Part shown: positions 13,832-15,310 of the stretch, piece by piece | How the letters are laid out: every line of letters begins with the position of its first letter | Numbering within the stretch: the stretch's first letter is position 1 | Notes under the pieces: generated by a model | Database searches by the model: none | Told to the model about the DNA's origin: nothing | What the model saw: only the letters and a program-made list of their open reading frames with translations | Made by a program: the position numbers and the translations under genes | Assembly (NCBI GenBank): GCA_026686805.1 | Contig: GCA_026686805.1_3949.1 | Reading direction: 5' to 3' (one strand) | Origin: a phage | Length of the DNA stretch: 52,601 nt

Positions 13832-14326
13832 GTGATACTTATGATTTGTGCTAACAAAGATTGCGGAAATGAAGCCGTTAAAGGTGGAAAATTTTGCTCA
13901 CGCTCTTGTTCTGCAAAAGTGAACAACAAGAAACACCCAAAGAGAAGTCAGGAAGGCTCTTGCCATTCATGCGGAAAGGTAACGCCAAAAGCAAGAAAAT
14001 ACTGTGACGAATGTATTTCAGGTGGAGTCATGAAAAAACATAAGACCCATCATGAAAAAAGCAAAGCTAAATCACTGCACGTTAAAAAGTCTCGTGATAG
14101 ACTGAAGAAGGCTTTAGTTGATTACAAGGGTGGTTGTTGTTCAATTTGTGGTTACAATAGGTGCATAAAGGCTCTAGAGTTTCACCACTTAGACCCTAAC
14201 ACAAAAGACTTCACAGTAGGTCAAAAACACTACTCACTGGCTACAATGCAGTCTGAAGTTGATAAGTGTGTCTTGCTTTGTGCAAATTGCCATAGAGAAG
14301 TACACGAAGGGGTAACAATGCTGTGA
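13832..14326 (+). CDS. HNH homing endonuclease (Cys-rich N-terminus, C-terminal HNH motif)
   Basis: C-terminal ...CSICGYNRC...LEFHHLDPNTKDF...CVLLCANCHREVHEG = HNH signature; embedded in tRNA array; stop codon overlaps start of tRNA-Ile. Confidence 0.75.
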   Translation: MILMICANKDCGNEAVKGGKFCSRSCSAKVNNKKHPKRSQEGSCHSCGKVTPKARKYCDECISGGVMKKHKTHHEKSKAKSLHVKKSRDRLKKALVDYKGGCCSICGYNRCIKALEFHHLDPNTKDFTVGQKHYSLATMQSEVDKCVLLCANCHREVHEGVTML

Positions 14327-14395
14327 AAGCACATATGGATGTGCATTCGGCTGATAACCGAAAGGTAGAAGGTTCGAATCCTTCTCACAGTACCA
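14320..14395 (+). tRNA. tRNA-Ile (anticodon GAT)
   Basis: acceptor gctgtga/tcacagt, D-stem gcac/gtgc, anticodon stem ttcgg/ccgaa, loop ctGATaa, T-arm gaagg-ttcgaat-ccttc, CCA. Confidence 0.75.
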
Positions 14396-14410
14396 ATTTC
14401 AATAAAGTTG

Positions 14411-14439
14411 TTGACATTGAGATGCGACTACTTTATAGT
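14411..14439 (+). promoter_or_regulatory. sigma70-like promoter TTGACA-17-TATAGT inside the tRNA array
   Basis: -35 ttgaca 14411-14416, 17-nt spacer, -10 tatagt 14434-14439. Confidence 0.5.
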
Positions 14440-14445
14440 AACCTT

Positions 14446-14610
14446 AGTTTTCGTTGCGTAGCGTCTATTTTGCAAATTTAAAATAAATGCAAACGACAAT
14501 GTTTTTCTGGCAGTAGCTTGATAGGCTAAACACCAGTGAGGTCTTCCAATCCCTCATCAAAGAATTTGGCGTACTAGCCCACGGTATGATTAATAAGGTG
14601 GGCATCTTTA
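14446..14610 (+). ncRNA. candidate small structured RNA downstream of promoter (no coding potential, no tRNA fold)
   Basis: hairpins tttgca/tgcaaa and gcccac(14577-14582)/gtgggc(14598-14603) followed by atcttt; purely structural inference. Confidence 0.2.
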
Positions 14611-14643
14611 AGGGCTTTCTAAGAGAGTCTTTAAAGATAATTA

Positions 14644-14725
14644 CGGGGCGTATCTCAGCGGTCTTCTAAACCGCCGTTAACCGAGTAAGTGGAGTATGCG
14701 GGTTCGAGTCCTGCCGCCTCGACCA
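14644..14725 (+). tRNA. atypical tRNA-like gene, possible tRNA-Arg (anticodon TCT); D-arm not placeable, 23-nt region between anticodon and T arms
   Basis: acceptor cggggcg/cgcctcg, perfect anticodon arm gcggt-ctTCTaa-accgc, T-arm gcggg-ttcgagt-cctgc, CCA; geometry non-canonical. Confidence 0.35.
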
Positions 14726-14868
14726 ATTTAGTTAGCAGATTACTTAGACGACCTTATCGGGTCTCCGTGTAAGGAGGTGGTCTGTATCTCATGTTTTCCA
14801 GAACATGTAAATAATCTGAGAAGGGGCTTTACAGTGTTGAGATAATACGGTAAGCTTCGAATTATAGT

Positions 14869-14951
14869 ATGGGACGATGTTAAGACTCTAAGGCATGAGC
14901 AACGGCTTCCAACACCGTTTCAAAGGGGTTCAACTCCTCCGTCCCATGCCA
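14869..14951 (+). tRNA. atypical tRNA-like gene, possible tRNA-Trp (anticodon CCA); 7 extra nt between acceptor and D-arm
   Basis: acceptor atgggac/gtcccat (7/7), anticodon arm acggc-ttCCAac-accgt, T-loop ttcaact, CCA. Confidence 0.35.
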
Positions 14952-14964
14952 AAGTCTTATTAGG

Positions 14965-15052
14965 GGTAGGTAGCGGCTAATGGTAGCCAAACTGTCTTGA
15001 AAACAGTTGCCACTGTAGAGATACGGTGAGGGTTCGACTCCTTTACTTACCG
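14965..15052 (+). tRNA. tRNA-Ser (anticodon TGA), long variable arm
   Basis: acceptor ggtaggt/acttacc, perfect anticodon stem actgt/acagt, loop ctTGAaa, 20-nt variable arm, T-arm gaggg-ttcgact-ccttt; CCA not encoded. Confidence 0.7.
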
Positions 15053-15310
15053 CCTAATAAGATTTTAAAGCCAAGCTTCATTCGGATGTTGCTTTGGTAT
15101 CCCTCGTGTATTGTCGTACACACTGATAAAACACCTAGTAGGTGTCACGGAGAAGAGATAATATCAAGCTCTCCAAAGGTTCTAGTCACCGGATTAAACA
15201 AGACTATGCAAAGACCTTTTTAGGTCTTTTTAGAGGGCTTCTAAGGTTATTACGGCTTGTTGTGGAACCTTGTTGCTTAGGTTCTTAGAAGTTCTCTAAA
15301 AAGATTTAAT

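What the first reader, a model, noticed from the sequence alone, without database searches (positions are those of the whole stretch)
14644..14725. tRNA-like gene with perfect TCT anticodon arm but no placeable D-arm
Acceptor (cggggcg/cgcctcg), T-arm and a perfect anticodon stem-loop (gcggt-ctTCTaa-accgc) are present, but only 7 nt separate the acceptor from the anticodon stem and 23 nt separate the anticodon stem from the T-arm. It is either a structurally unusual Arg tRNA, a pseudogene, or my fold is wrong. It is the only TCT candidate in the array.
Basis: seen in the sequence. Interest (0 to 1): 0.45.

Follow-up and report, generated by a model that had tools for sequence, protein, structure and literature searches.

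The report
Rewired phage arginine tRNA lacking D-arm
This 82-base gene is not a broken tRNA but one member of a large, mostly unannotated family of phage arginine tRNAs whose D-stem strands sit on either side of the anticodon arm, an architecture I could not find described for any tRNA.

Summary
At 14644-14725 there is a 7-bp acceptor stem, a perfect TCT anticodon arm, a canonical T arm and an encoded CCA, but no D hairpin. ARAGORN misses it; Rfam's tRNA model scores just above threshold with the D-arm deleted.

It is not a pseudogene. About 260 copies in unrelated phages share the plan. All stems covary, including a new 3-bp helix (14654-14656 with 14683-14685) that pairs the "7-nt linker" with the "23-nt variable region"; it is paired in 48 of 48 subfamily sequences with no one-sided change. 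The next bases, UAAGUGGAGUAU, resemble a tRNA-Arg D-loop (A14, R15, G18, G19, A20).

In an anticodon-blind census, 258 members read arginine codons and 2 carry GAT. Multi-copy contigs carry non-redundant Arg anticodons.

Related Felix O1-like phages hold a canonical tRNA-Arg(TCT) at exactly this locus (137 records canonical, 121 this form). AGA is 48% of arginine codons in this window, and no other TCT tRNA is present.

Best reading: a working tRNA-Arg(UCU) with a rewired D/anticodon domain. Charging, decoding and the three-dimensional model are inferred, not shown. Seven literature searches found no description.

The parts
14411..14439 (+). Sigma-70-like promoter (TTGACA, 17 nt, TATAGT; 11 of 12 matches) about 205 nt upstream, same strand as the tRNA array
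   Evidence: This is a consensus match only; function is not shown.
14644..14650 (+). Acceptor stem, 5' strand (CGGGGCG)
   Evidence: Pairs with 14715-14721. All 7 pairs show changes on both sides; 99.4% of cells are paired in 48 sequences.
14651..14653 (+). U8-A9-U10 connector
   Evidence: Invariant in the 48-sequence subfamily. In 177 broad-family members positions 8-10 read TAT 125, TAA 27, TAC 16, TAG 8 and GTC 1, so T8 and A9 hold in 176 of 177 while position 10 varies.
14654..14656 (+). X helix, 5' strand (CUC), running straight into the anticodon stem. Inferred to be equivalent to canonical positions 23-25.
   Evidence: Pairs with 14683-14685 in 144 of 144 cells, with 26 double-change cells. 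No shuffle of 500 reaches this; slid controls give 12-41%. RNAalifold finds the helix unaided.
14657..14657 (+). Single A between the X helix and the anticodon stem. Inferred to be equivalent to position 26.
   Evidence: Position in alignment A1. It pairs with column 39 in only 9 of 48 sequences.
14658..14674 (+). Anticodon arm GCGGU-CUUCUAA-ACCGC; anticodon UCU at 14665-14667
   Evidence: All 5 pairs covary and 95% of cells are paired. There is a compensatory G-C to U-A change even within Felixounavirus copies (rows L001_629 and L005_9982). Anticodons across the family are 258 Arg and 2 GAT.
14675..14682 (+). Linker CGUUAACC between the anticodon stem and X3'. Inferred to be equivalent to positions 44-47.
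   Evidence: C32, T34, A36 and A37 are invariant in the subfamily. Other subfamilies have shorter linkers of about 3-5 nt.
14683..14685 (+). X helix, 3' strand (GAG). Inferred to be equivalent to canonical positions 10-12.
   Evidence: Across 177 broad-family members the X pairs are 86% paired against 49% in shuffles (0 of 1000 shuffles reach it).
14686..14697 (+). D-loop mimic UAAGUGGAGUAU. Inferred assignment: A14, R15, N16, U17, G18, G19, A20 ... A21, U48.
   Evidence: T43, A44 and A45 lay outside the search pattern and are invariant. In a scan that left this region free, 97 of 113 sequences have TAA.TGGA and all 16 others listed keep TA-R..GGA; AT precedes the T stem in 106 of 113. The motif resembles the D-loops AACUGGACA and AAUUGGAUA of the canonical alleles.
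14698..14714 (+). T arm GCGGG-UUCGAGU-CCUGC
   Evidence: 97.9% of cells are paired and two pairs show double changes. GGTTC.A.TCC was part of the search patterns, so its conservation is not independent evidence.
14715..14721 (+). Acceptor stem, 3' strand (CGCCUCG)
14722..14725 (+). Discriminator A73 and encoded CCA
   Evidence: The discriminator is G or A in 46 of 48 subfamily sequences and in 105 of 113 sequences from the independent scan.

Best explanation
The gene encodes a functional arginine tRNA (anticodon UCU, reading AGA and probably AGG) from a phage-borne structural class. The acceptor stem, T arm and anticodon arm are standard, but the D hairpin is absent. Instead, three to four bases just after U8-A9 pair with bases lying 3' of the anticodon arm. 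This forms a short helix (X) that extends the anticodon arm by about the height of a D-stem. The strand leaving X on the 3' side is a D-loop-like sequence (A-R-N-U-G-G-A ... A-U) that runs directly into the T stem. Relative to a standard tRNA, the blocks [10-21] and [22-47] appear to have swapped order, which amounts to an internal circular permutation of the D/anticodon domain.

Shown: the secondary structure, its conservation, the restriction to arginine anticodons, the non-redundant isoacceptor sets, the exchange with a canonical tRNA-Arg(TCT) at the same locus, and the high AGA usage of this phage.

Inferred: the GG contacts the T loop as G18 and G19 do; the following A acts as the ArgRS determinant A20; host ArgRS charges the RNA; it works on the ribosome; and the L-shape is preserved. 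Why phages keep this form alongside the canonical one is unknown. My leading guess is escape from a host or competitor factor that recognises standard tRNA-Arg.
For: Structure: 48 distinct subfamily sequences are 94.2% paired overall (0 of 500 shuffles reach this; slid controls give 34-47%). The X helix is paired in 144 of 144 cells, with pair types UA 30, GC 11, AU 5 and CG 2 at 12:41 and no one-sided change. RNAalifold predicts it independently. It holds in 177 broader members (86% paired against 49% shuffled).

Identity: an anticodon-blind census gives TCT 208, ACG 24, CCT 15, TCG 9, CCG 2, and only 2 GAT. C35 is invariant in the subfamily alignment and position 36 is U or G in all Arg-anticodon members. 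The discriminator is A or G in 46 of 48 and 105 of 113. GGA is kept in all 113 sequences of the scan that left it free. These match the published bacterial arginine determinants A20, C35, U/G36 and A/G73 (PMC9976931).

Function: all 13 loci with two or more members carry different anticodons. Arrays of up to 28 canonical tRNAs lack a canonical Arg(TCT) while holding other Arg isoacceptors; 1 exception in 41 loci. VpaE1 and TP15 have a canonical Arg(TCT) cassette at the identical site with conserved flanks. The canonical form is in 137 records and this form in 121. AGA is 48% and AGG 10% of Arg codons in 47 window ORFs, and the window has no other TCT or CCT tRNA.

Context: the gene lies on the same strand as the array, a promoter-like site lies upstream, and no ORF longer than 27 aa crosses it.
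Against: There is no expression, processing, charging or decoding data. Nearest-neighbour energy does not favour the X helix (mean +0.8 kcal/mol; -22.5 against -23.7 kcal/mol for the window copy), and the single-sequence fold is no better than shuffles (z = 0.04). X is only 3 bp in the window copy. In some subfamilies the third pair is a mismatch. The equivalence of the GGA adenine to A20, and the whole three-dimensional model, rest on sequence resemblance. Part of the motif conservation is circular, because search patterns included TGGAGTATG or TAANTGGA; only (columns 43-45) and 68 are free of this. Two members with a GAT anticodon do not fit a purely arginine family. The sequences are related, so the shuffle controls overstate significance.
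Confidence: 0.75

Rival explanations
1. It is a tRNA-shaped RNA that is not used for decoding. For example, it could be a decoy or sponge for a tRNA-Arg-specific anticodon nuclease, for ArgRS, or for a modification enzyme, presenting an authentic Arg anticodon arm and acceptor end on a non-standard body.
For: The anticodon loop is very strongly conserved (CTTCTAA in 38 of 48). The body departs from every tRNA known to work on bacterial ribosomes. Phage tRNAs are documented counter-measures to tRNA-cleaving defences (abstracts of PMC10264068, PMC11555353, PMC11464382 and PMC12445682). The element coexists in tandem with a canonical Arg(TCT) in L058.
Against: It replaces the canonical Arg(TCT) at the same locus in about half of the relatives. 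In this window that leaves no other decoder for a codon that makes up 48% of Arg codons. Multi-copy contigs carry complementary isoacceptor sets, which is the pattern of a decoding repertoire. The acceptor/T domain (7 + 5 bp), discriminator and CCA are kept as EF-Tu and ArgRS would need.
Confidence: 0.13
2. It is a recoding tRNA that is charged with an amino acid other than arginine (for example by a class-II-type synthetase that reads the long extra region), so that AGA is read differently in phage genes.
For: It has a long region between the anticodon and T arms, superficially like Leu, Ser and Tyr tRNAs. One record, 121Q, annotates its copy as tRNA-Leu (H135). Allo-tRNAs with unusual cloverleaf structures are described in PMC5389517 (abstract). 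Two family members carry GAT.
Against: The extra region forms no covarying hairpin of its own: 38-40:47-49 shows no compensatory change and 21% broken cells. All five bacterial Arg anticodon types occur and essentially nothing else. That is what ArgRS identity through C35 and U/G36 predicts, and not what reassignment of one codon predicts. The element is interchangeable with a canonical Arg(TCT) between near-identical phages, which would be lethal if the meaning of AGA changed.
Confidence: 0.04
3. It is a decaying tRNA pseudogene: a former tRNA-Arg(TCT) that lost its D-arm by deletion and gained an insertion.
For: ARAGORN does not call it. The Rfam score is marginal. Some GenBank records label it tRNA-OTHER/NNN.
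Against: The same 78-79-nt plan recurs at 83-90% identity in Felix O1-like, 350-kb jumbo, T5-like, phi92-like, Mydo-like and Streptomyces phages, and in over 250 metagenomic viral contigs. Compensatory changes occur in every helix and the single-stranded motifs are invariant. Its sequence is unrelated to the canonical allele it replaces.
Confidence: 0.02
4. It is a canonical cloverleaf with different boundaries or a short intron that the reader mis-drew.
For: ARAGORN calls three relatives as 94-98-nt 'tRNA-Arg(tct)' starting 14-17 nt upstream (L029, L047, L073).
Against: Those upstream extensions are not conserved between relatives. Rfam's own alignment deletes the D-arm. The alternative pairings of the spacer regions show no covariation.
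Confidence: 0.01

Closest known systems
Canonical bacterial and phage tRNA-Arg(UCU), for example the VpaE1, TP15 and Sf14 allele at the same locus
   Same: Same anticodon loop (CUUCUAA), a 7-bp acceptor stem, a 5-bp T stem with a UUCGAnU loop, an A/G discriminator, an encoded CCA, and a D-loop-like A-A-N-U-G-G-A motif. It occupies the same genomic slot between tRNA-Ile(GAT) and tRNA-Ser(TGA).
   Different: There is no D hairpin between positions 9 and 26. The D-stem-like helix is formed by strands on either side of the anticodon arm, and the D-loop-like motif lies where the variable loop should be. The sequence is otherwise unrelated to the canonical allele.
D-armless mitochondrial tRNA-Ser(AGY/UCU) of animals (PMC7609411, PMC9427863)
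   Same: There is no D hairpin, only a short connector after the acceptor stem. Some of the mitochondrial examples even share the UCU anticodon.
   Different: The mitochondrial forms replace the D-arm with an unpaired connector. By my recollection they also have a short variable loop and lose the G18/G19 interaction with the T loop. Here the connector is paired (X helix), the region before the T arm is 12-20 nt long, it carries a conserved GG-A motif, and the T arm is fully canonical. The setting is phages of bacteria rather than organelles, and the identity is Arg rather than Ser.
Class II tRNAs (Leu, Ser, Tyr) and allo-tRNAs with novel cloverleaves (PMC5389517)
   Same: Extra nucleotides lie between the anticodon arm and the T arm, and the total length is about 80 nt.
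   Different: Class II tRNAs keep a normal D-arm, and their extra region is a self-contained covarying hairpin. Here no such hairpin is supported and the extra region pairs back to the 5' connector. The acceptor/T configuration is 7/5, not the 8/4 or 9/3 of allo-tRNAs.
Permuted and split tRNA genes (Cyanidioschyzon merolae, Nanoarchaeum); recalled from my own knowledge, not checked here
   Same: The order of tRNA sequence blocks differs from the standard order.
   Different: In those cases processing restores a standard mature tRNA. Here the acceptor ends are in the normal places, so the mature RNA itself would keep the permuted connectivity.

Membership tests
tRNA (Rfam RF00005) | Score at or above the curated gathering threshold | tested here: met
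   31.7 bits against 29. The margin is small, and it is met only by deleting the D-arm positions.
tRNA (Rfam RF00005) | 7-bp acceptor stem, 5-bp T stem with a T-Psi-C-type loop, and a 5-bp anticodon stem with a 7-nt loop carrying U33 and a purine at 37 | tested here: met
   Sequence. All three helices covary.
tRNA (Rfam RF00005) | D-arm hairpin between positions 9 and 26 | tested here: not met
   Only 7 nt lie there. Rfam aligns 4 nt to 15 model positions. ARAGORN makes no call.
tRNA (Rfam RF00005) | Aminoacylation and use on the ribosome | not testable with these tools
   Needs tRNA sequencing, charging assays and translation assays.
Bacterial tRNA-Arg identity set (PMC9976931: A20, C35, U/G36, A/G73) | C35 and U36 or G36 | tested here: met
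   The window copy has UCU. 258 of 260 family members have NCU or NCG anticodons.
Bacterial tRNA-Arg identity set (PMC9976931: A20, C35, U/G36, A/G73) | A or G at position 73 | tested here: met
   The window copy has A73. Family counts are 46 of 48 and 105 of 113.
Bacterial tRNA-Arg identity set (PMC9976931: A20, C35, U/G36, A/G73) | A20 in the D-loop variable pocket | tested here: inconclusive
   An A directly follows GG in all 113 sequences of the scan that left this region free, as in the canonical alleles. Whether it occupies the spatial position of A20 is inferred, not shown.
Mitochondrial-type D-armless tRNA | D-arm replaced by an unpaired connector, with a short variable loop | tested here: not met
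   The connector pairs with the downstream strand, and 23 nt precede the T arm.
Class II (long variable arm) tRNA | Self-contained variable-arm hairpin together with a normal D-arm | tested here: not met
   The candidate hairpin 38-40:47-49 has no compensatory change and 21% broken cells. There is no D-arm.
tRNA pseudogene | Lack of constraint: no compensatory changes, lineage-restricted, decaying | tested here: not met

The most novel reading that the evidence does not exclude
Phages maintain a dedicated, topologically permuted tRNA body for arginine only, and they exchange it horizontally, often next to homing-endonuclease genes. On this reading the body stays chargeable by host ArgRS, which needs little beyond A20, C35, U/G36 and N73, but is invisible to a host or rival-phage factor that recognises or cleaves standard tRNA-Arg. 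The roughly even split between canonical and rewired alleles within Felix O1-like phages would then reflect an ongoing arms race. The molecule would also be the first natural tRNA fold in which the D and anticodon domain is circularly permuted yet still works on a bacterial ribosome.
Probability: 0.25. Interest if true: 0.92.

Novelty: new variant of a known kind. Interest (0 to 1): 0.8.

Why it matters
Outside organelles, tRNAs are regarded as nearly invariant in architecture. The 2020 review of non-canonical tRNAs (PMC7609411) never mentions phages and places D-arm loss in mitochondria only.

A family of hundreds of phage genes that apparently decode arginine with the D-stem strands rewired around the anticodon arm would show that the tRNA core tolerates a change of strand topology. 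It would also give a natural test case for what ArgRS, EF-Tu, RNase P, modification enzymes and the ribosome really require.

There are practical consequences. ARAGORN misses the gene or mis-bounds it, and database records carry no feature or labels such as 'tRNA-OTHER', an unnamed 'tRNA' or 'tRNA-Leu'. Phage tRNA repertoires and codon-usage analyses therefore undercount Arg(UCU) decoders in many well-studied phages, including Felix O1-like, phi92-like, 121Q-like and T5-like phages.

The clean allelic exchange with a canonical gene inside one genus provides isogenic-like pairs for testing whether the odd body protects against tRNA-targeting defences. A compact Arg tRNA with unusual recognition surfaces could also interest genetic-code engineers.

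Tried and rejected
- **Single-sequence folding.** It gave acceptor, anticodon and T arms plus a 3-bp CCG/UGG hairpin, with z = 0.04. That hairpin has no covariation, so I rejected it.
- **CUC pairing with the second GAG (GGAG, columns 49-51).** Rejected: the partner is invariant while column 12 varies, which breaks 18 of 48 sequences.
- **A mini D-like hairpin (U43-A44 with U52-A53, plus or minus G42.U54).** It cannot be tested in the invariant subfamily, and I saw no consistent pairing when reading the other subfamilies' sequences. I left it out.
- **An alternative anticodon arm hidden in the 23-nt region (CGUUA-ACCGAGU-AAGUG).** By hand it gives a weak stem with C at position 33. I rejected it.
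- **Alignment A2 from the covariance model.** It mixed in canonical tRNAs at 22-33 bits, so I did not use it for pair counts and parsed members by landmarks instead.
- **Non-Arg anticodons from my loose detector (TTT, CAG, AAG, TAG, AAT).** These turned out to be ordinary tRNAs mis-parsed. Only two GAT members are real.
- **Rfam beyond tRNA.** Nothing meaningful.
- **Literature.** Seven searches and three papers read with find-in-text found no description of this fold. The library covers open-access papers only, so an older or paywalled report cannot be excluded.
- **Not attempted.** Protein tools (no coding potential), the metagenome-wide scan, and any three-dimensional RNA modelling (no tool available).

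Full report
**1. The observation**

The window is a Felix O1-like phage (Felixounavirus), 98-99% identical to phages garuso, OPT-SAL01 and others. It carries a tRNA array on the + strand.

ARAGORN finds 25 tRNAs but not this one, and none of them has a TCT or CCT anticodon.

Rfam's tRNA model reaches 31.7 bits against a threshold of 29. It does so only by deleting the D-arm (4 nt in place of 15 model positions) and inserting about 20 nt before the T arm. Other annotators have met the same 82 nt and left it unresolved: 'tRNA-OTHER / NNN' in REP8-12, FSL SP-010 and Antha, an unnamed 'tRNA' in VpaE1_ev035, and 'tRNA-Leu' in 121Q. Most other listed records carry no tRNA feature over it.

**2. It belongs to a large family**

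blastn of 111 nt found near-full-length copies at 83-90% identity in unrelated phages:
- ~350-kb jumbo phages (SE_PL, fENko-Kae01, BF17, 121Q);
- T5-like Demerecviridae (AmPh_EK80, Spivey, Kamaji);
- Mydo- and BIS47-like Vequintavirinae;
- phi92-like Stephanstirmvirinae;
- phage W70 and an Ounavirinae phage labelled Listeria phage LPML1;
- Streptomyces phages (Genie2), as a shorter match of about 64 nt at 81% identity.

A pattern covering only the 3' half (TGGAGTATGNNGGTTCRANTCC) recovered 48 distinct sequences of 78-79 nt from IMG/VR and a few MAG contigs. They revealed diverged subfamilies of 74-84 nt with the same plan. A covariance model built from the 48 scores the window copy at 97.6 bits and every canonical tRNA in the window at 31.4 bits or less. 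The candidate is therefore the only member in the window.

**3. Structure**

On the 48-sequence alignment (A1), the acceptor, anticodon and T stems all covary. Overall 94.2% of cells are paired, no shuffle of 500 reaches this, and slid controls give 34-47%.

The new result is a helix I call X. Columns 11-13 (window 14654-14656, CUC) pair with columns 40-42 (14683-14685, GAG). X is paired in 144 of 144 cells. Pair types are UA 30, GC 11, AU 5 and CG 2 at 12:41; CG 41, GC 5 and UA 2 at 13:40; and one C-G to U-A switch at 11:42. There is never a one-sided change. No shuffle of 500 reaches this, and slid controls give 12-41%. RNAalifold predicts X without being told.

In 177 broader members the three X pairs are 86% paired against 49% in shuffles (0 of 1000), with many distinct pair sets: CTC/GAG, CGG/CCG, CCC/GGG, ACC/GGT, GCC/GGC, CAC/GTG, CGC/GCG and CTG/CAG. 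Some subfamilies have a mismatch or a bulge at the third pair.

Two rival pairings show no compensatory change and 16-22% broken cells: the MFE hairpin 38-40:47-49, and CUC with the second GAG. Nearest-neighbour energy is neutral on X (+0.8 kcal/mol on average). The support is therefore comparative, not thermodynamic.

**4. The D-loop mimic and the rewiring model (inference)**

Right after X3' comes U-A-A-N-U-G-G-A-G-U-A-U and then the T stem. Columns 43-45 (T-A-A) were outside the search pattern and are invariant.

In a scan anchored only on the 5' half and the T arm, 97 of 113 distinct sequences have TAA.TGGA. All 16 others listed keep TA-R...GGA. AT precedes the T stem in 106 of 113. The canonical tRNA-Arg(TCT) alleles of sister phages have D-loops AACUGGACA and AAUUGGAUA, which is the same motif.

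I therefore propose these equivalences:
- X3' corresponds to canonical 10-12(13), followed by A14, R15, N16, U17, G18, G19, A20 ... A21 and U48.
- X5' corresponds to (22)23-25, followed by one nucleotide (position 26) and the anticodon arm.
- The linker after the anticodon arm corresponds to 44-47.

That is a swap of blocks [10-21] and [22-47], in effect a circular permutation of the D/anticodon domain. The stack height is preserved: 5 bp of anticodon stem, the 14.39 layer, 3 bp of X and the 10.43 layer make 10 layers, the same as a standard tRNA. No tool here can test the three-dimensional claim.

**5. Arginine identity and function**

The first pattern did not constrain the anticodon, yet all 48 sequences are Arg (TCT 45, ACG 1, TCG 1, CCT 1). 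A wider anticodon-blind census gives TCT 208, ACG 24, CCT 15, TCG 9 and CCG 2, against 2 GAT. All other apparent exceptions were ordinary tRNAs mis-parsed.

The published bacterial arginine determinants are A20, C35, U/G36 and A/G73, with A20 the strongest for E. coli ArgRS (PMC9976931). The family keeps C35, U/G36 and an A/G discriminator (46 of 48; 105 of 113), plus an invariant A after GG.

Every one of 13 loci with two or more members carries different anticodons, for example TCT+CCT+ACG and TCT+CCT+CCG. Arrays with up to 28 canonical tRNAs hold other Arg isoacceptors but lack a canonical Arg(TCT). The one exception among 41 loci is L058, where a canonical copy lies directly downstream.

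In this window AGA is 48% and AGG 10% of arginine codons (20.5 and 4.3 per 1000 in 47 ORFs). From my own knowledge, AGA and AGG are rare codons in E. coli.

**6. Allelic exchange**

In VpaE1 and O157 typing phage 15, a canonical 77-nt tRNA-Arg(TCT) lies at exactly this site. The flanks are conserved up to a few bases from the gene ends. Megablast finds the canonical cassette in 137 phage records and the rewired one in 121, of which 117 are at 95% identity or more. Both forms occur in Escherichia and Salmonella phages.

Moogle-like phages (Sf14, 3HA14) and Pectobacterium phage Wc4-1 have the canonical form (PMC12482277). The canonical gene is therefore probably ancestral in Ounavirinae, and the rewired gene is probably a horizontally acquired replacement. 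Two near-identical genomes differing by this swap is the strongest available argument that the two genes do the same job.

HNH endonuclease genes lie directly downstream of the gene in AmPh_EK80 and Kamaji and are annotated at or beside it in heid and SME50. This may be a vehicle for spread; I did not test it.

**7. Context**

The gene is on the + strand within the array. A near-consensus promoter-like site (TTGACA-17-TATAGT) lies at 14411-14439. No terminator-like site was found in 14300-15100, and no ORF longer than 27 aa crosses the gene.

**8. Comparison with what is known**

It works like a tRNA-Arg(UCU). It passes Rfam's tRNA threshold and has three of the four arms, but it fails the defining D-arm feature.
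- It is not a mitochondrial-type D-armless tRNA, because its connector is paired and it has a long GG-containing region and a full T arm.
- It is not a class II tRNA or allo-tRNA, because it has no self-contained variable hairpin and its acceptor/T configuration is 7/5.
- It is not a permuted-gene tRNA, because the mature ends are in the normal places.

A 2020 review of non-canonical tRNAs never mentions phages and places D-arm loss in mitochondria only (PMC7609411). Seven full-text searches found no description. The library holds open-access papers only.

**9. Verdict**

The pseudogene and mis-fold readings are rejected.

This is a new structural variant of tRNA, widespread in phages and tied to arginine. 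My confidence that it is a selected, structured tRNA-type RNA is very high. My confidence that it is charged with Arg and decodes AGA is about 0.75-0.8, and my confidence in the permuted-core model is about 0.5. Why the form exists is open. Evasion of a factor that targets tRNA-Arg is the most interesting untested idea.

Noticed in passing
window 14867-14952 (+): A second unannotated tRNA-like element. It has a 7-bp acceptor (ATGGGAC/GTCCCAT), then G-CCA, a T loop TTCAACT, and an anticodon arm AACGG-C-TTCCAAC-A-CCGTT, which is either a 9-nt loop or a C.A-closed 7-nt loop with anticodon CCA (Trp). The region between the acceptor and anticodon stems is aberrant, about 24 nt. ARAGORN and Rfam do not call it as a tRNA (best hit tRNA-Sec, 16.9 bits). 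It is conserved in 236 Ounavirinae records, and none of the 30 records listed annotates it as an RNA gene. The anticodon stem covaries (ACGG/CCGT, GTAAG/CTTAC, GTAGG/CCTAC). Trp is the only amino acid with no ARAGORN tRNA in this array. TP15 has an odd 71-nt tRNA-Trp in the same slot..
   Followed up: partly
L058 about 1500-1700 (IMGVR_UViG_3300044475_000188): A rewired Arg(TCT) and a fully canonical 77-nt tRNA-Arg(TCT) lie in tandem, about 15 nt apart. This is the only co-occurrence among 41 loci scanned.
   Followed up: partly
L204 10605-10681 and L215 193-271: Two members with the full rewired architecture but anticodon GAT (loops CTGATAC and CTGATAT). They may be a switch to isoleucine identity, or non-functional copies.
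   Followed up: no
L017 1598-2107 (AmPh_EK80); L026 684-1247 (Kamaji); phages heid and SME50: HNH homing-endonuclease genes sit immediately downstream of the rewired tRNA gene in AmPh_EK80 and Kamaji, and are annotated at or beside it in heid and SME50. This may explain its horizontal spread at 83-90% identity.
   Followed up: no
L236 2260-2346: A family member (TCG) with what looks like a roughly 10-nt duplication inside the anticodon arm (CTAGTCTTCGAAACTTTCGAAACTAG), giving an 87-nt gene. It may be a damaged copy.
   Followed up: no
L018 1063-1137, L019 2136-2211, L033 262-337, L096 1770-1845: ARAGORN reports tRNAs with two-base 'anticodons' (tRNA-???), that is, odd anticodon loops, in several phage arrays. 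The GenBank records name the first two tRNA-Ser and tRNA-Lys.
   Followed up: no
L089 2109-2182; L067 6424-6703: ARAGORN calls a CTA-anticodon (amber-reading, labelled tRNA-Pyl) tRNA in a 231-kb viral contig, and a tmRNA gene inside a phage tRNA array.
   Followed up: no
window 14411-14439 (+): A near-consensus sigma-70 promoter-like site (TTGACA-17-TATAGT) lies just after tRNA-Ile. About 200 nt of non-coding leader separate it from the rewired tRNA. Parts of that leader (181-305 of the 801-nt query) match Vi01-like, HK633-like and Klebsiella phages at 72-81% identity.
   Followed up: no
LR699048.1 (VpaE1_ev035) versus KM657822.1 (VpaE1): Two records with nearly the same phage name carry different alleles: rewired in VpaE1_ev035 and canonical in VpaE1. 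This suggests recent recombination at this locus.
   Followed up: no
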